This document shows, piece by piece, positions 8,672 to 40,161 of a stretch of 64,000 nt of DNA (its first letter is position 1; each line of letters opens with the position of its first letter). Origin of the DNA: an uncultured Gammaproteobacteria bacterium (GTDB lineage Bacteria > Pseudomonadota > Gammaproteobacteria > Eutrophobiales > Eutrophobiaceae); assembly GCA_943788815.1 (NCBI GenBank), contig CALSRS010000003.1, forward strand, positions 2,588 through 66,587, written 5' to 3'. Under the pieces are notes generated by a model. It was not told the DNA's origin. It did not search any database and was given only the letters and a program-made list of their open reading frames with translations. The translations under genes and the position numbers were made by a program.

Positions 8672-8673
8672 AT

Positions 8674-26106: not shown

Positions 26107-26220
26107 ATGAAATTGATTATGACACTGCTCGTACGAGATGAGGAAGATATATTAGTACGTAATATTGAATATCATTTGAAACGAGGTGTCGATTTTATCA
26201 TTGCAACAACCAGTAATAAT
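26107..26220 (+). pseudogene. N-terminal remnant of a GT2-like glycosyltransferase
   Basis: MKLIMTLLVRDEEDILVRNIEYHLKRGVDFIIAT resembles the start of Glyco_tranf_2_4-type proteins. The similarity stops where the convergent GT4 gene ends (26229). The rest of the track ORF is shadow sequence. Confidence 0.4.
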
Positions 26221-26228
26221 AAATTGCT

Positions 26229-27380
26229 TCATCCTGACCTCATTGTTACCACCGTGTCAATTGTATTTAGCAAGGTTGTTGCGATTAAATTAAAACTCAG
26301 GTTTTTATCAAAATAAGTGCGAATATTTTGAGAGTAATCACTGTATTTCTCTGGCGGGATACTTAATACATTTTGTGCAAGTTCGTTCGAATTACCGATA
26401 TCAAACAGAGTTCTAAACTGATTATTACCCGTTAGGTACTGAAAAGAAGGTATATTCGTTACAACTGGTATGACGCCACACGCCATGGCTTCGCACAGAG
26501 AATTCCCTCCATATTCAGTCACGCTTGCCTGCAGGAAAAAGTCAGCGCTGTTATAAAAATCTTCCATATCAGCAAAGTCAAGTGGGCCACTTAACGAGAC
26601 CGCATCGTTCAATACCGATGATTCATTAAGTTTGTCTGTGATTTCTTCGAGCATTTCATCTGTTTGGTAAACCCAGTAGAGTCTCGCCCCCGGTTTTTTG
26701 GCTAATATTTTTTCAAAACCGTTAAGTAAAGTTAATGGATCTTTTACGGGATGAAGTCTGCAAGTGGTTATACATACAGGGTTGCCAACTAAACCAGTTT
26801 TTATGCGTGCCTCCTTACGGCTTTTTAGTTCAAAAAAACTGGATGTTTCCGGACAAATTGAAATCAATGTTGATGAGTCAATTAAACCTGCATCTTTCCA
26901 AGTTTTGATCCTTTCTGGTGAATTAAAAAGTATTAGAGAGAGCTTTGATAGCGCCTGTTTTTGTAATGCGAGAAATTCATTATTTTTTGCAGGATTACTT
27001 CCATGAAATGAAGCAGTTAAAATTGCCGATGCTGAACTACAGATATCATTAATCGCCAGGATATCAGTAGGTAAAAATCCAAAAATATGAACGACATCCG
27101 GTTGTAATTTCTCAATAACTCTTGACAATGAGTCCCTGTCAATATGTTGTGACATCAGGTTTTCAATGCCACCGTAAAACGGGCTTGAGATAAATGTGCA
27201 CATTTGAAGCGGGCTTATATCATATTCATCTTCAGAGCAGAAACCCTGTACCCAGGTTGTATTAATGGATTTAGACAATAATGCTCTAGTTAACTCCCGC
27301 GGATGAAAATACAGTTTTACCAGATTCTCCAGGGAGTTTAATTTTTTATCGTAAGCTGGGTTTATTAGAGCGATTTTCAA
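26229..27380 (-). CDS. GT4-family (GT-B fold) glycosyltransferase
   Basis: The C-terminal motif is EYGGNSLCEAMACGVIPVVTNIPSF (the E..G....EAMA.G.PVV signature). Length is 383 aa. Confidence 0.75.
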   Translation of the reverse strand: MKIALINPAYDKKLNSLENLVKLYFHPRELTRALLSKSINTTWVQGFCSEDEYDISPLQMCTFISSPFYGGIENLMSQHIDRDSLSRVIEKLQPDVVHIFGFLPTDILAINDICSSASAILTASFHGSNPAKNNEFLALQKQALSKLSLILFNSPERIKTWKDAGLIDSSTLISICPETSSFFELKSRKEARIKTGLVGNPVCITTCRLHPVKDPLTLLNGFEKILAKKPGARLYWVYQTDEMLEEITDKLNESSVLNDAVSLSGPLDFADMEDFYNSADFFLQASVTEYGGNSLCEAMACGVIPVVTNIPSFQYLTGNNQFRTLFDIGNSNELAQNVLSIPPEKYSDYSQNIRTYFDKNLSFNLIATTLLNTIDTVVTMRSG

Positions 27381-27572: not shown

Positions 27573-28358
27573 TTATAAAGTAATAGAATATTCCTGGATA
27601 GTAGATATACAGCTAGTATATGCACTATTTGCACTGTTAAGTAAGGGTAAAGGAATTTTGATATCAGTATTACCATTTGAATGAAGTATTTTTCCTGCGA
27701 CTATCCGTTCGGATGGATCACCTCGAGATCCAGTATATTTCTGTAATTTATACCTAGTAGTTAGGGGCTTCTTCAAAGCAAGGAATTTCTGGAGGGAGTC
27801 TAAAATTATTGCTGGCACATCTGTTAATTCTTCATACTTTACTAACATAGAATTATTTGGTGAAGATATTTCTTTTGCCAGTAATTCCAGATTTTTGATG
27901 CGTTGTATGTAGTAATTTACAGCTCTCTCAACCGGCCAATTACCATATATGGGTTCAAATGTATTTACTATACTCGAAATTGTCGCAAGAGGTTTTCTTA
28001 ATAGAAATACTCGCTTTAGATTCTGAGTATTTAAGATATCAATATTTGGCGTCATTTTTTCATGATTAATCTGATCAAGAAAAATTTTTCTGTGACTTAT
28101 CAAGATGTTTTGCTGAAGACAAATTTCGGAGATTAGTGAATTTAGATCATTAACGGTATTGTAAACTTTGTTACGTTCACCACCTGCAATGATTTCAGGA
28201 TTGGTTGCCAGAATGTGTAGCAACAAGGTAGAGCCAGATCTCATATGACCCATGATAAAGATAAATCTGTTATGTCTCTGAAAATAATTTACCAGTCTTA
28301 TCAGATTTTCCCGTAATTCCGGAAAGGAATTATCTTTTTGTGTTTGTTTTTTAGTCAT
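27573..28358 (-). CDS. sulfotransferase-family protein
   Basis: The 5-prime-PSB-like loop is IMGHMRSGSTLLLHIL. The motifs RKPL and KYEEL are present. Length is 261 aa. Confidence 0.6.
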   Translation of the reverse strand: MTKKQTQKDNSFPELRENLIRLVNYFQRHNRFIFIMGHMRSGSTLLLHILATNPEIIAGGERNKVYNTVNDLNSLISEICLQQNILISHRKIFLDQINHEKMTPNIDILNTQNLKRVFLLRKPLATISSIVNTFEPIYGNWPVERAVNYYIQRIKNLELLAKEISSPNNSMLVKYEELTDVPAIILDSLQKFLALKKPLTTRYKLQKYTGSRGDPSERIVAGKILHSNGNTDIKIPLPLLNSANSAYTSCISTIQEYSITL

Positions 28359-28547
28359 TTATAAATATTTATGGGAGAGGAAATAGCTATTAAGTATTTC
28401 ATAATTATGATTATATATTAACTTCATAATGACAATTATATAATCATTCAGCGGGATAAAGGCCTGAGATATGAAATTAGCCATAAAGGAAAATAATATT
28501 ATCCCTTATATTTATTGCAATGCTTGCTTTGTTTTTTGTTATATAAG

Positions 28548-29480
28548 ATGCCACCTATTTTAGTTACAGGAGGTTGCGGTTTTATCGGAAGCAACCTGGT
28601 AAATTTTTTTGCACGGAAAGATCAGGAAGTGATAGTACTAGATGACCTGTCAAATTCGCAACTATGTGAGTTTCCCAGGAATGTCGAGTTTTATAGGGGA
28701 GATATAAGGGACACTGACCTTGTCGCAAAACTGATCAGGGAGGTCTCATACATATTTCATTTCGCTGCTGTTACCGCCATACCGCGGACAATCCATGAAT
28801 GGACAGATGCGCACAGTGTAAATCTGGGTGGCACCGTCGCATTATTCGAAATTGCCAGCCAGCAGCAGACCCCCCCCCCTGTCGTGTTTGCGTCCAGTTC
28901 CGCAGTATATGGCAATTCCATAATCAAGAACTCGGAATTCCGTGATACAGATCCGGTTAGCCCTTATGGTTTGGATAAGTTGGTCTGCGAGAAGCAGGCA
29001 GAGTTATTTGGAAAACTAAAGGGATTAAAAACTATTGGATTAAGATTGTTTAATGTTTACGGGAATCATGCTAACAGCAAATCGGATTATGTGGGCGTTA
29101 TAGATCGGTTTATCAGAAACATATTATCAGGTGGTGATTTAAAAATTTATGGAGACGGAAAGCAAACAAGAGATTTTATACACATAGACGATGTGGTTAA
29201 TATTGCATACAGAATCTCTTCCAGTATCAGTGAAATGAGCCAAGTAATAAATGTCGCCTCTGGAAAGTCTGCTTCAATATTAGAGGTTGCAGAGGAGCTT
29301 ATATCAACTACAGGAATAAATATCGAGATTACTCATGATCCGGGCAGGCCTGGTGATATCTATAAGTCTCTGGCTGACATATCTGTATTACAGGGGATGT
29401 TGCCGGATTACAAATTTGTCAGTTTGAACGATGGACTAGGTATAACCCTGCAACGTTATAAAGCCAGCCTGAAAAATTAA
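28548..29480 (+). CDS. NAD-dependent sugar-nucleotide epimerase/dehydratase (SDR family)
   Basis: I placed the start at the ATG (MPPILVTGGCGFIGSNL). The catalytic pair is SPYGLDK (YxxxK). The CDS contains a C10 homopolymer at 28870-28879. Confidence 0.85.
   Translation: MPPILVTGGCGFIGSNLVNFFARKDQEVIVLDDLSNSQLCEFPRNVEFYRGDIRDTDLVAKLIREVSYIFHFAAVTAIPRTIHEWTDAHSVNLGGTVALFEIASQQQTPPPVVFASSSAVYGNSIIKNSEFRDTDPVSPYGLDKLVCEKQAELFGKLKGLKTIGLRLFNVYGNHANSKSDYVGVIDRFIRNILSGGDLKIYGDGKQTRDFIHIDDVVNIAYRISSSISEMSQVINVASGKSASILEVAEELISTTGINIEITHDPGRPGDIYKSLADISVLQGMLPDYKFVSLNDGLGITLQRYKASLKN
28870..28879 (+). repeat. C10 homopolymer inside the epimerase CDS (encodes TPPP)
   Basis: I counted it directly (cag cag cag acc ccc ccc cct gtc). 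It is currently in frame. Confidence 0.9.
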
Positions 29481-29529
29481 TTGAGCTAACGGAAAAATAA
29501 ATTCTGAAAATTTTGAATGAACAGTAATC

Positions 29530-30708
29530 ATGTCAATTGTCATTAATAATGTTTTGTTGCCAAAGTGTAGCAAGGCAAATTCTGTTTCTGTCACTTCCCG
29601 GGACGGTGTCCTGAATAATTACAATGGTAAGTCTGGGAGCAATATTAATTATGTTCTGGATTTCTGTGACAAGGTGATCGCCTTTCCCGGGATCATCAAT
29701 TCTCATGATCATCTGGATTTCAATAATTTACCTTTGCTAAAAAGCCATGAATATGATGATTATGAGGAATGGGCGAAAGATATACATGAAAATAAGAAAT
29801 TCAGGGATATTATTACGAAATCAAACAAAATTCCTTACCATATGAAAATCAAGACCGGCCTGATCAAAAATGTAGTGTGTGGGGTTACTACCGTAGTTAA
29901 TCATGGGAGGAAAATAAACAAGTTCTTTGAAGGGATAGATGTATATGAACAATGTAAAATTCTTCATTCTGAAAAATATGAAAAGTGGTTGCCAGTAAAA
30001 TTGAATTTTTCAAACGGGGTCGTTCCGATAGCTATACACCTTGGTGAGGGAAAGACAGATTCAATGAGAAAGGAGATTGACAGGGTATTGAATTACAATT
30101 TATTTAATAAAAAAATTATCGGAATACACGGTATTTCGATAGACACAAATCAGGCAAAAAAAATCAGGGCATTAGTTTGGTGTCCGGAATCTAATCATCA
30201 GCTATACGGAAAGACTGCTCCAGTCGACGAAATAAAAAAATCTACAACAATATTGTTTGGCACGGATTCAACACTTTCAGCAGACTGGAATATATGGAAA
30301 CATTTAAGAATTGCCAGAAAGCTTAAATATCTGTGCGATGAAGAATTATTTTATACCTTGAATAGGAATGCCGCAGATGTATGGGGGATGGCTCTGGCGG
30401 ATAATATTTGTAGTGGATATTCTTCCGATATTGTTTTAGCAAAATGTACCCGGAACAATTATTGGGATAGCCTGTATATACTTGAGCCTGAAGATATTCT
30501 GCTTGTGATTAAAAAAGGCAAAATTGTGTTTTTTGACGAATCTGTATTTAACATGCTCGACGGCAAAGTGCCGGAAGAAATAAATTGGGGAAAAATTAGG
30601 GTTCAAAATTCAGTTAAATATATTCCAGCTAGTCTGATAGATGGGTTCGGTGAAGGGTATGTCTTTAATATCATGCCAGTAGAAATTCTAAAAAGTAAAA
30701 TACATTAG
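29530..30708 (+). CDS. amidohydrolase-superfamily metal-dependent hydrolase
   Basis: It has the N-terminal metal-binding motif GIINSHDHLDF and a later GTDS motif. Length is 392 aa. Confidence 0.5.
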   Translation: MSIVINNVLLPKCSKANSVSVTSRDGVLNNYNGKSGSNINYVLDFCDKVIAFPGIINSHDHLDFNNLPLLKSHEYDDYEEWAKDIHENKKFRDIITKSNKIPYHMKIKTGLIKNVVCGVTTVVNHGRKINKFFEGIDVYEQCKILHSEKYEKWLPVKLNFSNGVVPIAIHLGEGKTDSMRKEIDRVLNYNLFNKKIIGIHGISIDTNQAKKIRALVWCPESNHQLYGKTAPVDEIKKSTTILFGTDSTLSADWNIWKHLRIARKLKYLCDEELFYTLNRNAADVWGMALADNICSGYSSDIVLAKCTRNNYWDSLYILEPEDILLVIKKGKIVFFDESVFNMLDGKVPEEINWGKIRVQNSVKYIPASLIDGFGEGYVFNIMPVEILKSKIH

Positions 30709-30741
30709 TATTTCCAGTATAAACATCACGTATTTGTATTT

Positions 30742-31752
30742 ATGGATAGTGGAACGGATAAGATGCTTTTAAAAACAGAACTAGCAAATATTCTGGGTTA
30801 TCAGGGAGAGTTGGGTTACGAAGCTGAATACCCACTGCTAGAGGTCCCGGTCAGGGTGCGAAGTAATAATGTGCAGGTTATGAAAAATGCAGGTGTTGCA
30901 CTTGGTCACTGGCAGAACTGTAAAATGGATAAGAAAGAAAACTTTCCAGAATTGACTGTAGATATTATTTTGCAGGAAACAGATTCAGGGCCACCGCCTG
31001 ATGAGTATAAATTTACCCATAGGTACCGGGATGGTATATATCTAGCAAGTTGCGGCGATAATCTTTTGCTGGCCCTCAGGAATTCCGGAAAAGCAATTGC
31101 ATATGTGACTAATGATTTACTTGAAAATGTTGCAGCATTTAACTGGTTTGTTGTTGAGGCACTGTCATTATTCCTTGTTACCTATGGTCGGCGGGTACCG
31201 ATTCATGCTTCTGCCGTTACTAATGGAGACATTTCAATTGCGTTTATTGGTAATAGCGGAGCAGGAAAATCAAGTCTGGCTTATACGTTCCTGAAAAGTG
31301 GCTTCGGTTTGCTTGCTGAAGACGTAATTTATATGGGAATGGGAGACGATTTCAAGGTTTGGGGTAATTCAACAAGAATTCATCTCCTGCCCGATGCTAT
31401 AAACCTTTTTCCAGAATTGGAGGGCCGCATTCCCATTAAACGTCCAAATGGCAAGGTGAAAATTCAGATACCAATATCCGAGTTCAGCAATCCGGAACCG
31501 GTATTTGCAGTAGATAATATGTATATCTGTGTGATAGAACCAAACCATCTCAATAATAAAAGTTATATCAAACCTGTTTCTAGAGAATATGTGAGTAATT
31601 TCATCATGTCATCACTGGAGCCTGGTTTTAATCTAGAGTTTGAGAATTTAAAAGAATCTATGGATAAACTTTTGTGTTGTAATTTATATCTCCTGACGGC
31701 AGGCAAGAATCTGGCGGATATTCCGGATATGATGTTGGAATTAGATAATTAA
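30742..31752 (+). CDS. HPr-kinase-related (HprK C-terminal-domain-like) P-loop protein
   Basis: IHASAV...IAFIGNSGAGKSSLAYTF followed by LLAEDV matches the HprK-related kinase pattern. Confidence 0.55.
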   Translation: MDSGTDKMLLKTELANILGYQGELGYEAEYPLLEVPVRVRSNNVQVMKNAGVALGHWQNCKMDKKENFPELTVDIILQETDSGPPPDEYKFTHRYRDGIYLASCGDNLLLALRNSGKAIAYVTNDLLENVAAFNWFVVEALSLFLVTYGRRVPIHASAVTNGDISIAFIGNSGAGKSSLAYTFLKSGFGLLAEDVIYMGMGDDFKVWGNSTRIHLLPDAINLFPELEGRIPIKRPNGKVKIQIPISEFSNPEPVFAVDNMYICVIEPNHLNNKSYIKPVSREYVSNFIMSSLEPGFNLEFENLKESMDKLLCCNLYLLTAGKNLADIPDMMLELDN

Positions 31753-31796
31753 TTTAATCTGTGTAATACGGATAACCGATAAAATGGAGATTACAA

Positions 31797-33242
31797 GTGG
31801 TTGATGTTTTACTGGCACATGCCTTTTATATTTCGAATGATACGAAACAGCGTGATGAAAAGTTTCGTCCATATGCGCCATTAGCAACATTGTATGCGGC
31901 AAGTATATTGCGCGGACTTGATTATAATGTGGAATTATTCGATGCCACCCTTCAGGATAAGGAGGAACAATTCAGAACGTATCTGGAGAAACACAATCCC
32001 AGGATAATTGTTATTTATGAGGACAGTTTTAATTTTCTGAGCAAAATGTGCCTCAACCATGTAAGAGAAGCGACCATAAAAATGGTTGCCGAGGCAAAAA
32101 GACTGTCTGTCCCTGTGATCATAAGCAGTTCCGATGCAAGTGATGATCCACATGCGTATTTATCCAAGGGTGTGGACTATATTATGCTGGGTGAAGCGGA
32201 TATAACTGTATCAGAGTTAGTCCAGTCATTATTATCTAACGATTCTGCAAATTTAGATTCAATACAAGGCGTCGCTTATCTTGATGCTGAAGATAAAAAC
32301 AAGGTCATTAAAACAGGTCCGCGTTTGATAATGAGGAAGATAGGGCATATACCGTTCCCGGCCAGGGATCTTCTCGATATTGATTCTTACCGGATGGCAT
32401 GGAATAATACCCACGGTTATTTTAGTATGAATATGGTAACTACCAGAGGCTGTCCTTATTCGTGTACTTGGTGCGCAAAACCAATCTGGGGTAAATCCTA
32501 TGCAGTCAGGTCTCCTGAAAATGTGGCCGAGGAAATGGCAATTGTAAAACAGGAATTTTCCCCGGATCATATTTGGTTTATGGATGATATATTTGGACTA
32601 AAGCCCGGATGGGTAGAAAAATTTGCATATGAGGTGACGACCAGGGGTGCTGAAATTCCATTTATGATCCAGTCACGGGCAGATTTGATGCAGGAAGAAG
32701 TCGTGATCGGTCTGGCTCAATCTGGTTGTAAAGAAGTGTGGATTGGTGCCGAAAGTGGTAGTCAAAAGGTCCTTGATGCAATGAAAAAAGGTATAACAGT
32801 TGCTCAGATACAAAGAGCTCGAGAATTACTTGGTAAAAACGATATCCGGGCCTGCTTTTTTATCCAGTTTGGTTATCCGGGGGAAACAATTGAAGATATC
32901 GAAGCGACCATAAGTCTGGTCAGAACTTTACTGCCAGACAATATCGGAGTAAGCGTTAGTTATCCTTTGCCAGGGACAGAATTTCACGAGCAGGTGAATG
33001 ACCAGATTTCAGAAAAATCACACTGGGCGGAAAGTAATGATCTGGAGATAATGTTTAACGGGACATTTACATCCGACTATTATCGGAAACTGGGAGATTT
33101 TTTGCATAGAGACCTGGATGCCAGGTTAAATTACGATGAAAATTTAGATGATATCTCCGCGCTTGATAAAGAATGGGAAGAACTTGTAATAACTGCAGAT
33201 CAGTATATGACAAATGCCCCAACTTCTCCTTACCCTAATTAG
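31797..33242 (+). CDS. B12-binding-domain radical SAM enzyme (class B)
   Basis: It has a GTG start and an N-terminal cobalamin-binding-type Rossmann segment. The CxxxCxxC motif lies in TTRGCPYSCTWCAKP. Length is 481 aa. Confidence 0.8.
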   Translation: MVDVLLAHAFYISNDTKQRDEKFRPYAPLATLYAASILRGLDYNVELFDATLQDKEEQFRTYLEKHNPRIIVIYEDSFNFLSKMCLNHVREATIKMVAEAKRLSVPVIISSSDASDDPHAYLSKGVDYIMLGEADITVSELVQSLLSNDSANLDSIQGVAYLDAEDKNKVIKTGPRLIMRKIGHIPFPARDLLDIDSYRMAWNNTHGYFSMNMVTTRGCPYSCTWCAKPIWGKSYAVRSPENVAEEMAIVKQEFSPDHIWFMDDIFGLKPGWVEKFAYEVTTRGAEIPFMIQSRADLMQEEVVIGLAQSGCKEVWIGAESGSQKVLDAMKKGITVAQIQRARELLGKNDIRACFFIQFGYPGETIEDIEATISLVRTLLPDNIGVSVSYPLPGTEFHEQVNDQISEKSHWAESNDLEIMFNGTFTSDYYRKLGDFLHRDLDARLNYDENLDDISALDKEWEELVITADQYMTNAPTSPYPN

Positions 33243-33245
33243 TTC

Positions 33246-34652
33246 ATGATAGACCTGATCCTCACGCATGGATATTTTCTATGTGATGACGAAAAAGAGA
33301 AACAGATTATGAAACCCTATGCTCCCCTGGGTTTGATGTATATCTCTTCCTACCTTAAGCAAAATGGTTTCAAAGTGGAGCTGATTGACTCAACTTTTTT
33401 AGACATTGGTATCCTGAAGAAATATCTTTCAGAAAATCCGGGAGGAATTCTCGGTATTTATACCAATTTAATAACGCGTCATAACATAATTCGTATCATA
33501 CAATTCGCGAAACAAAATAATTTCAGTGTTGTTCTTGGTGGACCTGAGTCTGCAAACTATCCTGAAAATTATCTTAATAATGGCGCGGATATTGTTGTCA
33601 TTGGAGAGGGTGAACAAGCACTCTCAGAACTGATTCCTGCAATACGCGAGAAAGGTGTAAATAGATTAAGTTCTATTTCCGGTATCGTATTCAAGGATGA
33701 ATCCGGGAAGGTGATTAAAACACAGCCCCGTCAGGCAACACGGGATATTAGTAGTTATCCCTGGCCCGACAGGGAAGCAGTTGATGTTAATCGCTACTTA
33801 AATGTTTGGCGGGAGCATCATGGTGCAGGAAGTATTAGTATGATCACAGCTAGAGGTTGCCCTTACAGGTGTACATGGTGCTCGCATGCGGTATTTGGAT
33901 ATAGCCATAGAAGACGAAAGCCTGCTGAATGTGCAGATGAACTGGAATATATAATTGGCAAATTCGATCCTGACAAAATATGGTATGCCGATGATGTATT
34001 TACTATCAGTCACCCATGGTTGTTTGATTATGAGAAAGAATTAAAAAAGAGAAATATCAAAATTCCCTTCGAAACCATTTCCCGGGCAGACAGGCTGATG
34101 AATCCTGCTGCTCTGGATACATTGGCCGAGATGGGTTGTGAACGCATCTGGATAGGGTCTGAAAGTGGTAGCCAGAGAATCCTCGATGCAATGAAGCGGG
34201 ATGTCACCGTAGAACAGGTTCAATGGGCAACACGCGAGGTAAAGGAAAGAGGAATCAAGGTTGGCATGTTTCTAATGTGGGGGTACGGAGATGAAACGCT
34301 TGATGATATCGAAATGACGGTGGAGCATGTGAAACTTTCAAATCCGGATGTTTTTTTTACAACTGTGGCTTACCCTATAAAAAATACTCCATTTTTTGAT
34401 GAATATGCCGACAGTATATCAATGACAGGTGACTGGGATTCCAGCACTGATAGGGACTACAAATTGTCCACGCAGCGTGATCCAGAGTATTACAAGGCAG
34501 CAGATAAACTGTTATTCAATTCTGTAGAAGCATATCGCATCAACAATACAATGAACGATGATTTTAAAAATTACACACAGTGTGCCGATGAGGCCAGACA
34601 GTTTTTGATAAATTATGAACGAAAGCATGCCATCAACAAAACAGGCATTTGA
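33246..34652 (+). CDS. B12-binding-domain radical SAM enzyme (class B), paralogue
   Basis: The CxxxCxxC motif lies in TARGCPYRCTWCSHA. The protein is colinear with the preceding one (shared KPYAPLG, IWIG.ESGSQ..LDAMK.). The gap to the preceding gene is 3 nt. Confidence 0.8.
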   Translation: MIDLILTHGYFLCDDEKEKQIMKPYAPLGLMYISSYLKQNGFKVELIDSTFLDIGILKKYLSENPGGILGIYTNLITRHNIIRIIQFAKQNNFSVVLGGPESANYPENYLNNGADIVVIGEGEQALSELIPAIREKGVNRLSSISGIVFKDESGKVIKTQPRQATRDISSYPWPDREAVDVNRYLNVWREHHGAGSISMITARGCPYRCTWCSHAVFGYSHRRRKPAECADELEYIIGKFDPDKIWYADDVFTISHPWLFDYEKELKKRNIKIPFETISRADRLMNPAALDTLAEMGCERIWIGSESGSQRILDAMKRDVTVEQVQWATREVKERGIKVGMFLMWGYGDETLDDIEMTVEHVKLSNPDVFFTTVAYPIKNTPFFDEYADSISMTGDWDSSTDRDYKLSTQRDPEYYKAADKLLFNSVEAYRINNTMNDDFKNYTQCADEARQFLINYERKHAINKTGI

Positions 34653-35409
34653 CCAGCTTGCCCGTAATTACGATTCAATTTTCACCAATACGAATATTGG
34701 TAAGATGTTGCGGCAACGTACCCACGAACTCTTGGACGAGATTTTTCTCCCTGAAGACATCGTTCTGGTTCTGAATTGTGGAACTGGTGAAGATGTATTA
34801 TATCTTGCAAGCCGCGGTATTAAGGTGATTGCAACGGATAGTTCTGCTGAAATGATTAAATATGCGAGGATCAAAATTAAGGATGGTGGACTGGAAAATA
34901 GGGTGATATTCAAACAAATTGATTTTGATGAACTTGATGCATGTCTTGATCCTGACGAGCAATTTGATGGCGTAGTGTCAAACTTTGGTGGTCTTAACTG
35001 TTCCAGGGATTTGACATTACTGGCAGGCGAACTCTCAAAATATGTTCGAGTTGGCGGACGGCTTTACTTGTGTATTATGGGGCGGTTTGTTCCGTGGGAA
35101 TGGTTCTACCTGGGATTAAAGGGAAATTTTAGCAGGGTAATAGAGCGGATTTCAGGTAGCTGTATGTGGAGAGGACGGTACATAAAATATTATACTCCCG
35201 GTTCAGTTATTAAATCATTCTCTGATAATTTCCGTGCTGCTGATTCCAGAGGTCTGGGTTTTCTTCTTCCTCCCAGTTACGCTGGGTCATTAGTTTCAAG
35301 ATACCCTGATTTTTTTCAGTTGCTGAATAGATTAGAAAAGAAGATCGAATCCTGTTTCGCTGTCTCATGCTTCAGTGACCACTTCATAGTGACATTTTTA
35401 AAGAAGTGA
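34615..35409 (+). CDS. class I SAM-dependent methyltransferase
   Basis: Motif I is VLNCGTGEDVLYLASRGIKVIATD. The 5-prime end overlaps the preceding gene, so the exact start is uncertain. Confidence 0.7.
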   Translation: MNESMPSTKQAFDQLARNYDSIFTNTNIGKMLRQRTHELLDEIFLPEDIVLVLNCGTGEDVLYLASRGIKVIATDSSAEMIKYARIKIKDGGLENRVIFKQIDFDELDACLDPDEQFDGVVSNFGGLNCSRDLTLLAGELSKYVRVGGRLYLCIMGRFVPWEWFYLGLKGNFSRVIERISGSCMWRGRYIKYYTPGSVIKSFSDNFRAADSRGLGFLLPPSYAGSLVSRYPDFFQLLNRLEKKIESCFAVSCFSDHFIVTFLKK

Positions 35410-36329
35410 GAAGTACTGGGAATTGGCATGGCATGTGCCCTGTTTGCAAGTCTGATATTGGTTTGTTGTCATGGCCTGGAAATAAAATTGTATGCAGAAA
35501 TTGTTCGGATTCATTTCAGTCCATTGAAGGAATTTATCAACTCATTAGTACTGACAGACTTGCCAAATATGAAATGTTTCTGGATGAATATACCCGGATA
35601 CGGATTGCAGAAGGAAGAGGAGACCATGGTAATGACTATTACCAGAGATTGCCTGAACCTTCAGCATCCGATCCTCTCGCCTGGCAATGGAAAATCAGGA
35701 ATAAAAGTTTCAGGGCATTATTATCAGCCCTTTGTCTGAAATCTCAAAAGGGTAAGAAAATAATTGACCAGGGTGCCGGAGTTGGGTGGTTATGTAATCG
35801 CTTGGCAGAGATGGGACATCACCCGCTGGCCATTGATATCAATATGGACGATATGGATGGACTAAGCGCAGGTAAAAATTATGATAGAAGATGGCCAGTC
35901 ATACAGGCCGAGTTTGATAATTTACCTCTGGCAGATGACCAAGCTGATGTTGTTATATTCAATGCCAGCTTACATTACAGTACGGATTATTATAATACAT
36001 TGAGAGAAGCGCTACGCGTACTTGCCAATGATGGTAAATTAGTAATCATTGATTCACCCATTTACAGGAAACCAGGGAGTGGAATTCAGATGAAATCTCA
36101 GCGCCATGATTTTTTTGAAAAAAAGTATGGATTTAGATCAGATAGTATTAATAGTATCGAATTTCTGACCTGGGATATGATTAAAGATCTTGGGAACAGT
36201 TTGGGGATAACCTGGAATGTAATCAGGCCATGGTATGGATTGGGATGGGCAATTCGTCCGTTAAAGGCCACTATCAAACGTACAAGAGAACCATCAACTT
36301 TTGCAGTGTTAATTGCGAAACGGAGTTAA
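35406..36329 (+). CDS. SAM-dependent methyltransferase with an N-terminal Cys4 zinc-ribbon
   Basis: CPVCKS...CRNC is followed by motif I IIDQGAGVGWL. The GTG start overlaps the previous stop (GTGA). Confidence 0.65.
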   Translation: MRSTGNWHGMCPVCKSDIGLLSWPGNKIVCRNCSDSFQSIEGIYQLISTDRLAKYEMFLDEYTRIRIAEGRGDHGNDYYQRLPEPSASDPLAWQWKIRNKSFRALLSALCLKSQKGKKIIDQGAGVGWLCNRLAEMGHHPLAIDINMDDMDGLSAGKNYDRRWPVIQAEFDNLPLADDQADVVIFNASLHYSTDYYNTLREALRVLANDGKLVIIDSPIYRKPGSGIQMKSQRHDFFEKKYGFRSDSINSIEFLTWDMIKDLGNSLGITWNVIRPWYGLGWAIRPLKATIKRTREPSTFAVLIAKRS

Positions 36330-36336
36330 CTGAATT

Positions 36337-37335
36337 TTGAGCAATATGTTTACATCTGAACAAGCAATAGAACGACTGCCTGTTGTGGTTTTAATGCTTA
36401 AGACCGACTGTAATTGTCGTTGTGCTATGTGCGATATATGGAAAGATACAAGCAAGGCCTCATTACCCTTGCAAACGATTGAAAATATATCTCGACAAAT
36501 GAAATCATTGAGAACCAGGGAGATAGTCTTGAGTGGTGGTGAGCCACTGATGCATAAGGAAATCGAAAAAATTTGCAGGTTGTTATATTCAAAGAATTTT
36601 AAGATTACCTTAATCACAACGGGTCTATTACTAAAACATCATGCCAGCTGGATAAGTGAATGCATCAAACAAATTTACGTAAGCCTGGATGGACCTGAAG
36701 ATGTTCATAATTCAATTAGAAATATTCCTGGCGCATTTGGGAAAATTACAAGAGGAATAGAAACGGTACGAAATTTCAGAAAGAATATTGGTATTGGAGG
36801 ACGTTGTACTGTCCACAAGCAAAATTTTCAACATATAGTTTCAACGGTAGCGGCAGCCAAGGAAGCAGGAATGGACAGTATCAGTTTTCTTGCTGCAGAT
36901 ATTCAACAGGATAACTTTGGTAGGACCAGCGATTGGAACGAGAACGGAATTTCACTTTCTGCAGAAGAAATAGCAGAATTGGATGATATCCTCGAGCAAT
37001 TATATATTAATAATAAAGTAGATTTTGAATCTGGCTTTATCGTTGAAAGCAGGGATAAACTGCAAAAGAAACTTCTAGATTATTATCGTGCTTTGGCTGA
37101 GGGGAAAGAGTTCCCGGAAGTAGATTGTAATGCGCCATGGGTATCAAGCGTGATTGAAACTGATGGCCGTATCAGACCCTGTTTTTTTCATAAACCTTAT
37201 GATGAGAACATCAATGATGGCACAATTACTGATATTTTAAATTCCTCTTCAGCAAAGGATTGGCGAAAAAACCTGGATGTAAAAACCGATGCAATTTGCA
37301 AATCTTGTGTTTGTTCTCTTTCCTACAGAGAATAG
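36337..37335 (+). CDS. radical SAM enzyme with a C-terminal SPASM/twitch-like Cys cluster
   Basis: The CxxxCxxC motif lies in DCNCRCAMCDIW, and the GGEPL motif is present. The C-terminal Cys pattern is CNAPW...PCFF...CKSCVC. The true start is probably the ATG at 36346. Confidence 0.75.
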   Translation: MSNMFTSEQAIERLPVVVLMLKTDCNCRCAMCDIWKDTSKASLPLQTIENISRQMKSLRTREIVLSGGEPLMHKEIEKICRLLYSKNFKITLITTGLLLKHHASWISECIKQIYVSLDGPEDVHNSIRNIPGAFGKITRGIETVRNFRKNIGIGGRCTVHKQNFQHIVSTVAAAKEAGMDSISFLAADIQQDNFGRTSDWNENGISLSAEEIAELDDILEQLYINNKVDFESGFIVESRDKLQKKLLDYYRALAEGKEFPEVDCNAPWVSSVIETDGRIRPCFFHKPYDENINDGTITDILNSSSAKDWRKNLDVKTDAICKSCVCSLSYRE

Positions 37336-37936
37336 ATTGTCATTTACATAACATATCCGAATTCACCGGCATGACCTGACAGAACGTCCGAAATAAGTTG
37401 AAGTTCTTTTGACAGGTCGGAAAATCTCGTCTGGGGGGTAATTCAATTTCATATGTCTCATGATTTTGATATGACGAATAAAATGTTCCCTCTTATATCG
37501 ATAATTGAAGTATTCTCGAATATGATTTTTCGGGATGTCCATTCAAATATTCTTTCTTTGGATAATGTAGTGAGTATTGAATGTCCGACCAGTAATTTTG
37601 TCAATAATATTGTGCCACTAGGGTGTGACCGTTAGAAAAAAAAGGATTTTCCGCTAATTCAAATAAATCGCATGATTCGGATCCAGAATTTTACATTACT
37701 TTTCGTATCTAGACCGTGCCTGGATCACTGGGTAAAGGAAAACCGTTTAAATGTTGACAATGCTACTTTTTGATACGTGAATTAATATCTTGTAGTTTTG
37801 AATTAAATTTAATTAGCAGTTCTTATTATGTATATTGATATATCAAATAACAGAAAATTATAATGAAACTGGTATCTATCAATCATTTATTAATTAATTA
37901 ATTTTATAATAATTAAATGTATCGGAATCATATAAA

Positions 37937-39076
37937 TTGAATAAATCATTGAATATAGTATTTATCTCACCTGGAGGCGTGGACAGGAGTGGTCAATACA
38001 AGGTAATACCGCATATATTATGGATGCTTGAGAAGTTGACAGTTAAACATAAGGTTACTGTTATAAGCCTTTATCAGTATGAACAAGCTTGCGAATACAC
38101 ATTGTGTGGAGCCAGGATTATTTCACCTGGAAAGATCAGGCAGGACTGGAATAATTTTCAGGATCCGCAAAGTGCCCTCAAGGAAATGTATGAGAAAACT
38201 CTGGATATAGTAAGCTCGGAAGGGACGCCGGATATACTCCATGGGTTTTGGGGATTTCATGCCGGTTGGCTTGCATCAAGGATTGCATTGTCAATGAAAA
38301 TACCGTCAGTTGTGAGCCTGATGGGAGCAGAATTCGTTGCATTTCCTGAGATAAAATATGGCGGTCAATTCCATACTAACCAGAAAATGATATTGAATGA
38401 TACTTTGAAGCAGGCAACTTCGTTTACTGTTGCCAGCCATCACATGGAAGTCCATGCCAGTGAGTTTGGTGTGTCGGCCGAATATATACCATTCGGTGTA
38501 CACGGTTCATGTTTTAAACCCAACAAATCTCCTGCACAGCCCCCGTGGAAACTGTTACATGTGGCCAGTATCAATCGAATTAAGGACCAGGCGACTTTAT
38601 TAAAGGCATTCAGGAGGGTGGTAGATCGTATACCAGCTGTACACCTGGATATAGTTGGGGAAGATACACTGAATGGGGAGTTGCAAAATTTAACAGATGA
38701 ATTGGACATGGAAAATCATGTTACTTTTCATGGTTATCTTCCGAATAATGAGGTGCGTATATTTTTTCAAAATGCAAATATCTATTTAGTATCATCCTTG
38801 AATGAAACCGGGCCAATTTCAATGTTGGAAGCTGCGGCCTGTCGTGTGCCGACAGTTGGAACTGAAGTAGGATATGTTGCCGATTGGACAGATAAGCGGG
38901 CCCTTGCGGCAGAGATAGGTAATAGTCAAGATCTTGCTGAAAAAATAATTTTTCTGCTTAAAAATAATCAAAAAAGAAAAGAATTGGGGGAGGCTGCTTA
39001 CAACTGGGTTAGAGAATATGACTCTAGCTGGACAACGAACAAGTTACTGGAAACATACAAATCACTTATGTACTAA
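37937..39076 (+). CDS. GT4-family glycosyltransferase
   Basis: It has a TTG start and the C-terminal signature ETGPISMLEAAACRVPTVGTEVG. Length is 379 aa. Confidence 0.7.
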   Translation: MNKSLNIVFISPGGVDRSGQYKVIPHILWMLEKLTVKHKVTVISLYQYEQACEYTLCGARIISPGKIRQDWNNFQDPQSALKEMYEKTLDIVSSEGTPDILHGFWGFHAGWLASRIALSMKIPSVVSLMGAEFVAFPEIKYGGQFHTNQKMILNDTLKQATSFTVASHHMEVHASEFGVSAEYIPFGVHGSCFKPNKSPAQPPWKLLHVASINRIKDQATLLKAFRRVVDRIPAVHLDIVGEDTLNGELQNLTDELDMENHVTFHGYLPNNEVRIFFQNANIYLVSSLNETGPISMLEAAACRVPTVGTEVGYVADWTDKRALAAEIGNSQDLAEKIIFLLKNNQKRKELGEAAYNWVREYDSSWTTNKLLETYKSLMY

Positions 39077-39207
39077 CATAATGAAAATCAAAATCGTTCT
39101 TGTTCTAATAGAACCACAACCAAAATTGTCTTAATTAGTTTAGTTTGTAGCTATAATTAAATTTAAATGTGAGAATTGAATATTTTTCCTGTAAATATAA
39201 TTAAAAA

Positions 39208-40134: not shown

Positions 40135-40161
40135 TCATTTTATAATATTGTTACTAAAGCG

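What the first reader, a model, noticed from the sequence alone, without database searches (positions are those of the whole stretch)
28515..37335. Eight-gene operon with three radical SAM enzymes, two methyltransferases, an HprK-like kinase and an amidohydrolase, with no visible precursor peptide
From 28548 to 37335, eight co-directional genes are packed with gaps of 0-50 nt or with overlaps:
- SDR epimerase
- amidohydrolase
- HprK-related P-loop protein
- two paralogous B12-binding (class B) radical SAM enzymes
- two class I SAM methyltransferases, one with a Cys4 zinc ribbon
- a SPASM/twitch radical SAM enzyme

Class B rSAM plus SPASM rSAM plus an HprK-like kinase is the kind of enzyme set seen in RiPP maturation. 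HPr-kinase homologues phosphorylate lasso-peptide precursors, and SPASM enzymes are mostly peptide maturases. However, I found no short ORF with a plausible ribosome-binding site in any gap of the operon, and its neighbours are glycosyltransferases and sulfotransferases. The substrate is therefore open. It could be a heavily C-methylated and cross-linked glycan or glycolipid, or a peptide encoded elsewhere. I do not recognise this gene combination as a described pathway.
Basis: partly seen in the sequence, partly recalled or inferred. Interest (0 to 1): 0.8.

Follow-up and report, generated by a model that had tools for sequence, protein, structure and literature searches.

The report
Uncharacterised radical-SAM glycan-tailoring gene cassette
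The eight-gene operon is real and belongs to a very widespread enzyme cassette whose product nobody has identified; it almost always sits among sugar-transferring genes, so it most likely builds a heavily methylated sugar-containing envelope molecule, not a peptide.

Summary
**Observation.** It is confirmed.

**Known families.** No NCBIfam model reaches its curated cut-off for any of the eight proteins.

**Recurrence.** The cassette is not a chance juxtaposition.
- Its core is the amidohydrolase, a B12 radical SAM enzyme (rSAM), a SPASM rSAM, a methyltransferase and a GT4 glycosyltransferase.
- That core is orthologous, at 27-45% identity, to a cassette in at least 581 species genomes. These are mostly Bacteroidota and Ignavibacteria and include cultured Mucilaginibacter, Pedobacter and Dyadobacter.
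- There it travels with GT4s, an MsbA/PglK-like ABC exporter, Wzy_C proteins and a nucleotidyltransferase.

**The HprK-like gene.** It belongs to a second module, HprK/ScmC-like kinase plus PF14907 nucleotidyltransferase. That module is common in Acidobacteriota polysaccharide loci.

**Locus limits.** In the window the PF14907 partner lies 6 kb downstream, after GT4, MtrA, MtrB and GT2. The same MtrA, MtrB, PF14907 order recurs in a relative whose HprK-like protein is only 45% identical. The SDR gene is not conserved.

**Peptide signature.** I found no precursor peptide, recognition element or peptidase in 28 loci.

**Best reading (about 0.55).** The operon is a non-ribosomal pathway that makes, activates and transfers a multiply methylated sugar-like unit onto an envelope glycoconjugate. 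The product is unknown.

The parts
26229..27380 (-). GT4-type glycosyltransferase (GT1a), divergent from the operon
   Evidence: Pfam Glycos_transf_1 and Glyco_trans_1_4. Syntenic in L001/L011 at 519 bits. It is 30% identical (129 bits) to the GT of the Mucilaginibacter cassette.
27573..28358 (-). Sulfotransferase (Sulfotransfer_3)
   Evidence: Pfam hit at 4.8e-10. Conserved next to the cassette in L001/L011 and inside the cassette operon in L007/L013.
28548..29480 (+). Extended-SDR NDP-sugar epimerase/dehydratase; a variable member
   Evidence: Pfam Epimerase 6e-54. The best NCBIfam hit is GalE at 145 bits, below its 262-bit cut-off. GxxGxxG and YxxxK motifs are present. Absent from the closest relative L001/L011.
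29530..30708 (+). COG0402-type metal-dependent hydrolase (deaminase-like amidohydrolase); a core member
   Evidence: Pfam Amidohydro_1. A profile search of the PDB gives Tm0936, the SAH/MTA deaminase, as best hit at 1.6e-8. All catalytic positions align: H59/H61, H170/E173, H200, D246. The AF2 model has pLDDT 87.5, and Foldseek matches guanine, isocytosine, MTA and aminofutalosine deaminases and triazine hydrolase at TM about 0.6. More than 1,972 homologues and at least 581 species genomes carry it.
30742..31752 (+). HprK/ScmC-related P-loop protein with a PEPCK-like fold; putative kinase
   Evidence: Weak hits to Pfam Hpr_kinase_C and to TIGR04355/TIGR04352. Walker A is GNSGAGKS. The AF2 model has pLDDT 84, and Foldseek's top matches are ATP-PEPCK. 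Only about 8 close relatives exist in 5.8e9 proteins. Distant relatives carry PF27840 ScmC.
31797..33242 (+). Class B (B12-binding) radical SAM enzyme B12a; a core member
   Evidence: Pfam Radical_SAM plus B12-binding. The best NCBIfam hit is HpnJ at 122 bits, below its 578-bit cut-off. It is 45% identical (420 bits) to its Mucilaginibacter orthologue.
33246..34652 (+). Class B radical SAM enzyme B12b, a paralogue of B12a
   Evidence: 34% identical to B12a. The best NCBIfam hit is BchE at 135 bits, below its 481-bit cut-off. Orthologues score about 500-780 bits in gammaproteobacterial and acidobacterial loci.
34615..35409 (+). Class I SAM methyltransferase MTa
   Evidence: Pfam Methyltransf_25, _31 and _11. 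The best NCBIfam hit is CpaM at 56 bits, below its 180-bit cut-off. Conserved after B12b in the related loci.
35406..36329 (+). Class I SAM methyltransferase MTb with an N-terminal Cys4 zinc ribbon
   Evidence: Pfam Methyltransf_11. CPVC at residue 11 and CRNC at residue 30. Present in 20 of 28 HprK-type cassette loci.
36337..37335 (+). Radical SAM enzyme with a partial SPASM/twitch C-terminal domain; a core member
   Evidence: Pfam Radical_SAM, Fer4_12 and SPASM. The best NCBIfam hit is the PTO1314 family at 96 bits, below its 306-bit cut-off. The best PDB hit is BlsE at 2e-11. It is 40% identical to its Mucilaginibacter orthologue. At least 7,960 homologues exist.
37835..37864 (+). Promoter-like site (TTGATA-18-TATAAT) in the 601-nt AT-rich spacer before the second unit
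   Evidence: It matches 11 of 12 consensus positions, the joint best score in 26-45 kb. The spacer is only 118 nt in L001.
37937..39076 (+). GT4-type glycosyltransferase (GT1b)
   Evidence: Pfam Glycos_transf_1 4e-31. It follows the SPASM gene in L001/L011 and in L004-6/L012. The best PDB hits are BshA-type GT4s.
39208..40134 (+). MtrA/PioA-like periplasmic decahaem cytochrome c
   Evidence: Pfam Paired_CXXCH_1. It has ten CxxCH motifs and a signal peptide. Linked to the cassette in L011, L012/L177, L008 and L009.
40162..42651 (+). MtrB/PioB-like outer-membrane porin
   Evidence: Pfam MtrB_PioB 1.8e-105.
42683..43600 (+). GT2 glycosyltransferase
   Evidence: Pfam Glycos_transf_2. It starts 31 nt after MtrB.
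43639..44880 (+). PF14907 (NTP_transf_5) nucleotidyltransferase, the usual partner of the HprK-like gene
   Evidence: Pfam hit at 3.4e-42. The DxD motif is D133/D135. A PF14907 relative lies within about 10 kb in 68 of 85 HprK-family loci of at least 12 kb, and directly downstream of the HprK-like gene in 53 of the 117 loci with at least 1.5 kb of sequence there. In L012 it directly follows MtrB.

Best explanation
The operon is a non-ribosomal tailoring and activation cassette for a sugar-containing envelope molecule: a lipid-linked oligosaccharide, glycolipid or surface glycan.

Proposed flow:
1. The class B radical SAM enzymes, usually methyltransferases (established knowledge of the family; some members instead rearrange sugar head groups), and the two SAM methyltransferases decorate a sugar-like building block.
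2. The SPASM/twitch enzyme performs a further radical step such as oxidation, decarboxylation or epimerisation.
3. The COG0402 hydrolase either deaminates a pathway intermediate or removes the inhibitory by-products 5'-deoxyadenosine and S-adenosylhomocysteine.
4. The HprK-like P-loop protein phosphorylates a hydroxyl. The PF14907 nucleotidyltransferase converts that phosphate into a nucleotide-linked or phosphodiester-linked form.
5. The GT4 and GT2 enzymes transfer the unit, and the sulfotransferases add sulfate.

What is shown: the gene content, the catalytic motifs, orthology across phyla and the glycan-type neighbourhood.

What is inferred: the chemical steps, their order and the product.
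For: **Conservation of the cassette**
- Gene order is kept in five gammaproteobacterial lineages whose HprK-like proteins are 44-56% identical to the window's.
- It recurs in about 20 Acidobacteriota, Gemmatimonadota and Eisenbacteria loci.
- The core is orthologous to the Mucilaginibacter cassette: B12a 45%, SPASM 40%, amidohydrolase 42%, GT1a 30%.

**Census of 80 loci seeded with the amidohydrolase**: MT 76, B12-rSAM 72, GT1/GT4 67, SPASM 54, ABC exporter 49, GNAT 34, polysaccharide deacetylase 31, Bac_transf 8.

**The 55 of those loci that are at least 15 kb long**: two GT4 families in 46 and 44, ABC exporter 42, a weak NTP_transf_2-like protein 41, Wzy_C 24, DUF1972-GT4 22, PMT_2 7.

**Acidobacterial loci** carry Wzy_C, Wzz, Poly_export, Wzi, GT4 and Bac_transf beside the cassette.

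**The window itself** has GT4, sulfotransferase, an NDP-sugar SDR, GT4, GT2 and PF14907. GC falls to 0.35-0.41 in the locus, as in many acquired glycan loci.

**No peptide signature**
- No small ORF is shared by 28 loci.
- The operon gaps are at most 49 nt.
- No PqqD/RRE or peptidase turned up in any annotated locus.

**Catalytic competence**
- The amidohydrolase keeps the full Tm0936-type catalytic set.
- PF14907 keeps its DxD motif. The equivalent D134/D136 is essential in PsmN, which adds hexose to a phosphate installed by the HprK-type kinase PsmK (PMC6993621).
Against: - The window has no Wzx, Wzy, Wzz, initiating transferase or ABC exporter. Assembly and export in this organism are therefore unexplained.
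- The only experimentally characterised HprK-like plus NTP-transferase pairs act on peptides.
- SPASM enzymes are mostly peptide maturases.
- No enzyme has a close characterised relative. The best NCBIfam scores reach only about a fifth to just over half of the curated cut-offs, so every reaction assignment is by family analogy.
- The small-ORF search would miss peptides under 25 aa, very divergent ones, and genes encoded elsewhere.
Confidence: 0.55

Rival explanations
1. The operon belongs to a RiPP pathway whose precursor is encoded elsewhere. In this reading the B12 rSAMs C-methylate a peptide and the SPASM enzyme cross-links or epimerises it. The HprK-like kinase phosphorylates a serine, and the PF14907 enzyme adds a sugar to that phosphate, as in pseudomycoidin or the lpp family.
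For: - HprK-like kinase plus NTP transferase plus MsbA-like exporter is a documented RiPP tailoring set (PMC6993621, PMC13381572).
- L007/L013 has exactly that triad beside the rSAM genes.
- Distant relatives of the HprK-like protein carry the ScmC domain of the predicted SynChlorMet peptide cassette.
- The SPASM protein gives weak hits to ScmE, ScmF and PapB.
Against: - No precursor, RRE/PqqD, leader peptidase or lasso cyclase appears in the window or in about 30 annotated related loci.
- The N-terminal domain of the HprK-like model is PEPCK-like, not a winged-helix RRE.
- The core cassette occurs in 79 of 80 amidohydrolase-seeded loci without any HprK-like gene but with GT4s. Wzy_C genes accompany it in 24 of the 55 longer loci.
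Confidence: 0.12
2. The operon makes a soluble, exported small molecule: a glycosylated, methylated heterocycle or cofactor, possibly redox-active, rather than a surface polymer. In this reading the COG0402 enzyme acts on a purine-, pterin- or nucleoside-like ring.
For: - In Bacteroidota the conserved set is compact and self-contained: enzymes, one or two GT4s and an ABC exporter.
- Bac_transf is present in only 8 of 80 loci.
- The amidohydrolase belongs to the base-deaminase subgroup.
- The best solved relative of the SPASM enzyme is BlsE, which acts on a nucleoside.
- Flavin-reductase-like genes occur in some loci.
- There is a recurrent link to cytochromes: MtrAB, and a cupredoxin plus cytochrome c.
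Against: - No scaffold-forming enzyme (PKS, NRPS, terpene, or GTP cyclohydrolase-type) is conserved in the loci.
- Wzy_C, PMT_2, Wzz and Poly_export neighbours point to lipid-linked glycan assembly.
Confidence: 0.18
3. The operon modifies a membrane lipid or lipid head group. This would be an HpnI, HpnK, HpnJ-like logic: glycosylate a lipid, deacylate it, then rearrange or methylate the head group by a B12 radical SAM enzyme. This is a subtype of the best explanation rather than a true alternative.
For: - HpnJ and the 'lipid biosynthesis B12 rSAM' model are among the top, sub-threshold, NCBIfam hits for B12a and its Mucilaginibacter relatives.
- GT4 plus polysaccharide deacetylase plus an MsbA-like exporter occur in Bacteroidota loci.
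Against: - Scores are far below the cut-offs (122 versus 578 bits).
- The same proteins hit BchE, PhpK and RiPP methylases equally well.
- No lipid-synthesis genes are conserved nearby.
Confidence: 0.1
4. The arrangement is a chance juxtaposition of unrelated genes.
For: None beyond the mixed enzyme content.
Against: Gene order and orthology are conserved across rearranged loci in four phyla.
Confidence: 0.01

Closest known systems
PsmK/PsmN (pseudomycoidin) and LppK/LppN: HprK-like kinase plus 'uncharacterised NTP transferase' tailoring pair of RiPPs
   Same: - An HprK-family P-loop kinase is paired with a nucleotidyltransferase-fold enzyme. Whether PsmN and LppN themselves belong to PF14907 was not checked.
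- The nucleotidyltransferase keeps the DxD motif at nearly the same position: D133/D135 here and D134/D136 in PsmN.
- Some relatives add an MsbA-like exporter.
- The likely shared chemistry is phosphorylation of a hydroxyl followed by formation of a phosphodiester.
   Different: - There is no precursor peptide, RRE, lasso cyclase or signal-peptidase-like protease.
- The pair sits in glycan loci.
- In the window the two genes are 12 kb apart, separated by the rSAM genes and MtrAB.
- Sequence similarity to HprK models is marginal, at 19-24 bits.
Hopanoid side-chain tailoring HpnI, HpnK, HpnJ, and archaeal calditol synthase
   Same: A glycosyltransferase, a deacylating hydrolase and a B12-domain radical SAM enzyme act on a sugar head group (own knowledge; review PMC13459092). 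HpnJ is the top NCBIfam hit of B12a.
   Different: - The HpnJ score of 122 bits is far below the 578-bit cut-off.
- No hopanoid genes are present.
- The GT and hydrolase families differ: GT4 and COG0402/PF01522 here, GT2 and YdjC in the hopanoid pathway.
Aminoglycoside sugar tailoring: GenK/GenD1 class B rSAM C-methylases, BtrN twitch rSAM, AprD4 (own knowledge)
   Same: Class B rSAMs, a twitch/SPASM rSAM, SAM N/O-methyltransferases, a GT4 and ABC exporters act together on sugars, not peptides.
   Different: - No 2-deoxy-scyllo-inosose synthase or aminotransferases are present.
- The AprD4 model scores only 49-76 bits against a 500-bit cut-off.
SynChlorMet cassette (ScmA-F), a bioinformatically defined, uncharacterised system
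   Same: An HprK-related ScmC-type protein occurs together with rSAM/SPASM enzymes. Distant relatives of the window protein carry PF27840 ScmC.
   Different: - ScmE and ScmF score 62 and 70 bits against a 400-bit cut-off.
- There is only one SPASM enzyme here.
- No PqqD-like ScmD is present.
- B12 rSAMs, MTases and the amidohydrolase are not part of the SynChlorMet cassette.
Tm0936/MtaD/DadD-type SAH, MTA and 5'-deoxyadenosine deaminases (COG0402)
   Same: It is the best solved relative by profile search. All metal and catalytic residues are conserved, and the fold matches. A role in clearing rSAM and MTase by-products would fit a cluster with five SAM-using enzymes.
   Different: - Similarity is remote (E 1.6e-8 with a profile, about 15% identity).
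- The HCPxSN motif reads WCPESN here.
- The gene is translationally coupled to a methyltransferase in other phyla, which suggests a pathway-specific substrate.
Proteusin (polytheonamide) maturation: PoyB/PoyC class B rSAMs, PoyD, PoyE (own knowledge)
   Same: It combines several class B rSAM C-methyltransferases, another rSAM and a SAM methyltransferase.
   Different: - There is no NHLP or Nif11 precursor and no protease.
- The RiPP C-methyltransferase model TIGR03975 scores 63-74 bits against a 282-bit cut-off.

Membership tests
RiPP biosynthetic gene cluster | Precursor peptide gene in or next to the cluster | tested here: not met
   Operon gaps are at most 49 nt. Listing all ORFs of at least 20 aa shows no candidate. 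No small ORF is shared among 28 loci. The small called genes in relatives are sulfotransferase fragments or unrelated. An unlinked gene cannot be excluded.
RiPP biosynthetic gene cluster | RiPP recognition element (PqqD-like), discrete or fused | tested here: not met
   No PqqD hit appears in Pfam or NCBIfam scans of the window proteins or in the precomputed Pfam of related loci. The rSAM core of the SPASM enzyme starts at residue 18. The HprK-like N-terminal domain is PEPCK-like.
RiPP biosynthetic gene cluster | Leader peptidase or a C39-type exporter | tested here: not met
   None is present in the window or in related loci. The ABC exporters of relatives are 554-578 aa and lack a peptidase domain.
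Paeninodin/lpp-type HprK plus NTP-transferase tailoring module | HprK-family kinase with a Walker A motif | tested here: met
   GNSGAGKS is present and Hpr_kinase_C hits at 2.8e-5, sub-threshold. The fold is PEPCK/HprK-like.
Paeninodin/lpp-type HprK plus NTP-transferase tailoring module | Partner nucleotidyltransferase with a catalytic DxD motif | tested here: met
   PF14907 hits at 3.4e-42 at 43639-44880, with D133/D135. A PF14907 relative lies within about 10 kb in 68 of 85 loci of the family. Whether PsmN itself belongs to PF14907 was not checked.
Paeninodin/lpp-type HprK plus NTP-transferase tailoring module | Peptide substrate with a target serine, plus lasso or SpI-type core enzymes | tested here: not met
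   No lasso cyclase, B1/B2 proteins, SpI peptidase or precursor is found in any locus examined.
SynChlorMet cassette | ScmC, ScmE and ScmF above the curated cut-offs, plus a PqqD-like ScmD | tested here: not met
   ScmE scores 62 bits and ScmF 70 bits against a 400-bit cut-off. The window protein has no PF27840 on record. There is no PqqD.
Cobalamin-dependent (class B) radical SAM enzymes | N-terminal B12-binding domain plus a CxxxCxxC radical SAM core | tested here: met
   Both proteins carry PF02310 and PF04055. The cluster motifs are CPYSCTWC at residue 219 and CPYRCTWC at residue 205. Methyltransferase activity was not testable.
Named class B subfamilies (HpnJ, BchE, PhpK, GenK-like, RiPP C-MTs) | Score above the curated NCBIfam cut-off | tested here: not met
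   The best scores are 122 bits (HpnJ, cut-off 578) and 135 bits (BchE, cut-off 481).
SPASM/twitch radical SAM enzymes | A C-terminal Cys-rich auxiliary-cluster domain after the rSAM core | tested here: met
   PF13186 hits at 4.5e-8. CX14GX4C lies at residue 264 and CxxCxC at residue 321, which is a partial seven-Cys motif.
COG0402 amidohydrolase (base-deaminase/chlorohydrolase) subgroup | HxH, HxxE, His and Asp catalytic set on a TIM barrel | tested here: met
   H59/H61, H170/E173, H200 and D246 are invariant in 16 homologues and align with Tm0936 H55/H57, H200/E203, H228 and D279. Foldseek gives TM about 0.6 to this subgroup. The substrate was not testable.
Wzx/Wzy- or ABC-dependent surface polysaccharide locus | Initiating polyprenyl-phosphate transferase, a flippase or ABC exporter, and a polymerase or ligase in the locus | tested here: not met
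   None of these is found among the window ORFs of at least 150 aa that were scanned; five were not scanned or gave no hit. They are present in relatives: Bac_transf in L012 and L070; Wzy_C and Wzz in L065; Poly_export in L070 and L091; ABC in L007 and L093.
MtrAB/PioAB porin-cytochrome module | A periplasmic decahaem cytochrome followed by an MtrB/PioB porin | tested here: met
   There are ten CxxCH motifs and a signal peptide. MtrB_PioB hits at 1.8e-105. Function in electron transfer was not testable.

The most novel reading that the evidence does not exclude
The rSAM cassette, the HprK-like/PF14907 pair and the MtrAB porin-cytochrome genes form one functional unit. In this reading the locus makes a phospho- or nucleotidyl-activated, radical-SAM-methylated (and here sulfated) glycan or glycosylated mediator that is built for, or attached to, an outer-membrane electron conduit.

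The support is a linkage that has survived rearrangement in five gammaproteobacterial lineages. A looser form of it recurs beside MtrA-like cytochromes in Acidobacteriota polysaccharide loci.
Probability: 0.15. Interest if true: 0.85.

Novelty: new variant of a known kind. Interest (0 to 1): 0.62.

Why it matters
**Scale.** The core cassette has thousands of homologues: at least 7,960 for the SPASM enzyme, more than 1,972 for the amidohydrolase, and at least 581 species genomes. It occurs in soil and sediment Bacteroidota, Ignavibacteria, Acidobacteriota and Gammaproteobacteria. No curated family model covers it, and I found no paper that describes it.

**If the best reading is right.** It would add a large, unexplored branch of radical-SAM chemistry on carbohydrates or glycolipids. 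That field currently rests on a few antibiotic and hopanoid enzymes. It would also give a function outside peptides to the HprK-like/PF14907 pair.

**Testability.** Cultured carriers exist, including Mucilaginibacter gossypiicola Gh-48, Dyadobacter frigoris and Pedobacter sp. L105, so the question can be addressed directly.

**The MtrAB link.** The repeated linkage to MtrAB-type porin-cytochromes hints at a connection between envelope glycans and extracellular electron transfer.

Tried and rejected
**Precursor peptide**
- I listed every ORF of at least 20 aa in 28.3-38 kb.
- I clustered all unmasked ORFs of 25-160 aa from 28 loci. The only shared family is a mono-haem cytochrome c of about 90-135 aa, found in three loci.
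- I read the small called genes of relatives. They are fragments of a sulfotransferase or are unrelated.

**Named family for any protein**
- NCBIfam scans of the eight window proteins and of nine Mucilaginibacter proteins found nothing above a cut-off.
- Sequence searches of the PDB gave only remote hits.

**Literature**
- PF14907 and HprK-related terms returned only a phosphonate survey.
- A search on brGDGT, radical SAM and Acidobacteria returned nothing.
- The SynChlorMet/ScmC search was swamped by an unrelated acronym.
- Searches on calditol/HpnJ and on radical SAM with exopolysaccharide showed no matching system.

**Other checks**
- The 306-aa Bacteroidota protein is not a hidden HprK homologue (hhalign probability 0.1). 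It shows only weak similarity to a flavin-reductase-like protein.
- I considered a brGDGT or lipid-methylation pathway because of the acidobacterial distribution. I set it aside because no lipid genes are conserved and GT4 and Wzy_C genes are.
- I considered tetrapyrrole modification because of BchE, NirJ, Ahb and ChlM-like sub-threshold hits and the cytochrome neighbours. I set it aside because those hits are generic for these superfamilies and no tetrapyrrole genes are linked.
- Rfam found no RNA in or near the locus.

Full report
**1.

ORF listing gives eight co-directional + strand genes between 28515/28548 and 37335. The gaps between them are 49, 33, 44, 3, -38, -4 and 7 nt.

- an extended-SDR epimerase/dehydratase (6e-54);
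- an amidohydrolase (1.4e-8);
- a weak Hpr_kinase_C match (2.8e-5, below the gathering score);
- two proteins with B12-binding plus Radical_SAM domains;
- two class I methyltransferases;
- a Radical_SAM/Fer4_12/SPASM protein.

Motifs read from the sequence agree with this. All three rSAMs have CxxxCxxC. The HprK-like protein has the Walker A motif GNSGAGKS. The second methyltransferase has CPVC...CRNC. The last enzyme has a partial SPASM pattern, CX14GX4C followed by CxxCxC. The two B12 enzymes are 34% identical over their full length. ATG 28548 is the likely SDR start because it directly precedes GxxGxxG. The flanks are GT4s and sulfotransferases. GC drops to 0.35-0.41 across the locus, against 0.42-0.50 around it.

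**2. No named family matches**

Against NCBIfam release 20, none of the eight proteins reaches a curated cut-off. The best hits are:

| Protein | Best model | Score (bits) | Cut-off (bits) |
|---|---|---|---|
| B12a | HpnJ | 122 | 578 |
| B12b | BchE | 135 | 481 |
| SPASM enzyme | PTO1314 family | 96 | 306 |
| HprK-like | HprK_rel_B | 22 | 200 |
| First methyltransferase | CpaM | 56 | 180 |

Sequence searches of the PDB give only remote relatives. They are OxsB, TsrM and one unnamed rSAM for B12b, and the nucleoside decarboxylase BlsE for the SPASM enzyme.

**3. The cassette recurs, in two layers**

*The HprK-like protein and its close relatives.* It has only about eight close relatives among 5.8 billion proteins. 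Their contigs show conserved gene order.
- A San Francisco Bay gammaproteobacterial MAG (L001/L011, 56% identity) is syntenic from the flanking DinB, phasin and SRAP genes through GT4, sulfotransferase, amidohydrolase, HprK, B12a, B12b, MTa, MTb, SPASM, GT4, MtrA and MtrB. It lacks the SDR gene.
- A Rifle gammaproteobacterial MAG (L004-6/L012/L176/L177, 45%) keeps HprK to GT4, then a Bac_transf initiating transferase. It lacks the amidohydrolase.
- L008 and L009 (44%) keep the core with rearrangements.
- L007/L013 (32%) has HprK, then PF14907, then an ABC exporter, divergent from B12a-B12b-MT-B12-MT-sulfotransferase-GT4.

*More distant HprK-like relatives.* Proteins at 25-30% identity are abundant in Acidobacteriota. 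About 20 of their loci, plus one Gemmatimonadaceae and one Eisenbacteria locus, carry B12x-B12a-B12b-MTa-MTb-B12-amidohydrolase-SPASM next to the HprK-like gene. One contig has five B12 rSAMs, an MT, the amidohydrolase, SPASM, HprK and PF14907 all co-directional.

*The core enzymes without HprK.* They are far more widespread.
- The amidohydrolase has more than 1,972 homologues and is found in at least 581 species genomes. These are mainly Bacteroidota and Ignavibacteria and include cultured Mucilaginibacter, Pedobacter, Dyadobacter and Pinibacter.
- The SPASM enzyme has at least 7,960 homologues.
- The window proteins are orthologous to the Mucilaginibacter gossypiicola set: B12a 45% (420 bits), SPASM 40%, amidohydrolase 42%, GT1a 30%, MTa 27%.

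**4. What travels with it**

| Partner family | 80 amidohydrolase-seeded loci | The 55 of those loci at least 15 kb long |
|---|---|---|
| Methyltransferase | 76 | 54 and 49 (two families) |
| B12 rSAM | 72 | 55 (two copies) |
| GT1/GT4 | 67 | 46 and 44 (two families) |
| SPASM rSAM | 54 | 46 |
| MsbA/PglK-like ABC exporter | 49 | 42 |
| 290-aa protein with a weak NTP_transf_2 match | not counted | 41 |
| GNAT | 34 | 27 |
| Polysaccharide deacetylase | 31 | 22 |
| Wzy_C (O-antigen ligase/polymerase-like) | not counted | 24 |
| DUF1972-GT4 | not counted | 22 |
| Bac_transf | 8 | 8 |
| PMT_2 | not counted | 7 |
| HprK-like | 1 | not counted |

Acidobacterial loci add GT4, Wzy_C, Wzz, Poly_export, Wzi and Bac_transf.

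In 85 loci of at least 12 kb seeded with the HprK family, the counts are PF14907 68, B12 rSAM 24, Wzz 20, Bac_transf 19 and MtrA-like 9.

The window operon is therefore a fusion of two modules. One is an rSAM/MT/amidohydrolase/GT4 cassette. The other is an HprK-like/PF14907 pair. Both live in glycan-assembly neighbourhoods.

**5. The unit in the window is larger than the finding**

After a 601-nt AT-rich spacer with a strong promoter-like site at 37835-37864 comes a second tightly packed block: GT4, MtrA, MtrB, GT2 and PF14907. Its gaps are 131, 27, 31 and 38 nt. In the Rifle MAG, PF14907 (1.6e-46) directly follows MtrB, so the order MtrA, MtrB, PF14907 is shared by lineages whose HprK-like proteins are only 45% identical. 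MtrAB is within 10 kb of the cassette in five of six gammaproteobacterial lineages, on either side and on either strand.

In several Acidobacteriota loci an MtrA-like decahaem cytochrome lies beside GT4-HprK-PF14907. In another locus the neighbours are a cupredoxin and a cytochrome c. I regard this link as real but unexplained.

**6. Peptide or sugar**

The case for a peptide rests on precedent.
- PsmK, an HprK-type kinase, phosphorylates the C-terminal serine of pseudomycoidin. PsmN, an NTP-transferase-like protein, adds hexoses to that phosphate, and D134/D136 are essential for this (PMC6993621).
- The lpp RiPP family has an HprK-like kinase, an NTP transferase, an RRE, an SpI peptidase and an MsbA-like pump as its core (PMC13381572).
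- The window PF14907 protein keeps the DxD motif at D133/D135.

Every defining RiPP feature that I could test is absent.
- There is no precursor in the gaps.
- No small ORF is shared among 28 loci.
- No PqqD/RRE, peptidase or lasso enzyme occurs in about 30 annotated loci.
- The modelled N-terminal domain of the HprK-like protein is PEPCK-like rather than a winged helix.

By contrast, GT4s are orthologous core members, and lipid-linked-glycan genes recur in three phyla. I therefore favour a sugar-containing product. A kinase plus a nucleotidyltransferase is also the classical route for activating a sugar or polyol as a nucleotide-linked donor (established knowledge: GalK with GalU, HldE, AmgK with MurU, LicA with LicC). 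This gives the pair a natural role in a glycan locus.

**7. The amidohydrolase**

A 16-sequence alignment shows invariant H59, H61, H170, E173, H200 and D246. The profile's best solved match is Tm0936, the SAH/MTA deaminase (1.6e-8). The catalytic residues align one to one with H55/H57, H200/E203, H228 and D279. The AF2 model (pLDDT 87.5) matches guanine, isocytosine, MTA/adenosine and aminofutalosine deaminases and triazine hydrolase at TM about 0.6.

It is therefore a competent COG0402 deaminase-type hydrolase of unknown substrate. Two roles are plausible. One is removal of 5'-deoxyadenosine and SAH generated by five SAM-using enzymes. The other is deamination of a base-containing intermediate. 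Its translational coupling to a methyltransferase in other phyla favours a pathway role.

**8. What remains weak**

- The window has no initiating transferase, flippase, polymerase or exporter.
- All reaction assignments are by family analogy.
- The product is unknown.
- The small-ORF screen cannot see very short, very divergent or unlinked precursors.

**9. Verdict**

This is a new, uncharacterised variant of a known kind of system, a biosynthetic tailoring cassette. It is notable for its breadth, for the likely use of several radical SAM enzymes on a non-peptide substrate, for re-use of the HprK-like/PF14907 pair outside RiPPs, and for the linkage to MtrAB.

Noticed in passing
window 54702-56509 (+): An MbnB/TglH/ChrH-family (DUF692) RiPP-modification enzyme (3.3e-24) is followed, with a 4-nt overlap, by a 305-aa protein that has no Pfam hit. 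No obvious precursor ORF lies in the 320 nt upstream. This is a separate possible peptide-modification locus.
   Followed up: partly
window 39208-42651; L012 2654-6150; L008 2-3251; L009 802-4381; L070 7616-8560: MtrA/MtrB-type porin-cytochrome genes are repeatedly linked to the HprK-like/PF14907/GT4 genes. In gammaproteobacterial loci they lie on either side and either strand. MtrA-like decahaem cytochromes also sit in Acidobacteriota polysaccharide loci. The 763-aa and 479-aa neighbours in L070 have no Pfam hit.
   Followed up: partly
window ~20040-20560; L011 ~780-2230: A stretch upstream of the 493-aa gene is conserved between the window and the closest relative in several reading frames. 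It appears twice in L011, which suggests a conserved non-coding element or repeat. Rfam finds nothing there.
   Followed up: no
window 25958-26240: Decayed gene fragments lie here. One is a remnant ('MKQFIITGC...') of the sulfotransferase-like gene that is split into 71-aa and 168-aa ORFs in L001. The other is a short GT2-like N-terminal fragment on the + strand. The locus edge has been remodelled.
   Followed up: partly
window 28528-44880 (gene starts): Most genes of the locus have AT-rich leaders with no recognisable Shine-Dalgarno sequence; only B12a and the SPASM gene show GGAG-like motifs. Together with the low GC, this may point to acquisition from a lineage that uses Shine-Dalgarno sequences little.
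   Followed up: no
window 45028-50363 (+): A planctomycete-type PSD/PSCyt multi-domain cytochrome c protein (DUF1592, 1588, 1585, 1587, 1595) overlaps a DUF1552 (HXXSHH) protein. A 519-aa ankyrin-repeat protein follows. They lie directly downstream of the PF14907 gene.
   Followed up: no
L008 8174-10987 and 16658-17494: One relative carries two HprK-like paralogues separated by a TetR regulator. It also has a PhyH-family dioxygenase after the SPASM gene and a flavin-reductase-domain gene. The 306-aa protein found in 27 of the 80 mostly Bacteroidota loci shows weak similarity to that flavin reductase (E 3e-4).
   Followed up: partly
window 37336-37936: The 601-nt AT-rich spacer between the SPASM gene and GT4 is only 118 nt in the closest relative. 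It contains unconserved 59-60-aa ORFs and the best promoter-like site of the region.
   Followed up: partly
window 3-3652 and 5619-10365: The flanks carry housekeeping genes: pcnB, folK, a deoxynucleoside kinase, panB and panC. There is also a benzoate-CoA ligase, BoxB-like and enoyl-CoA hydratase set. This shows a chromosomal, gammaproteobacterial-type context. A tRNA lies at 59855-59938 (-).
   Followed up: no
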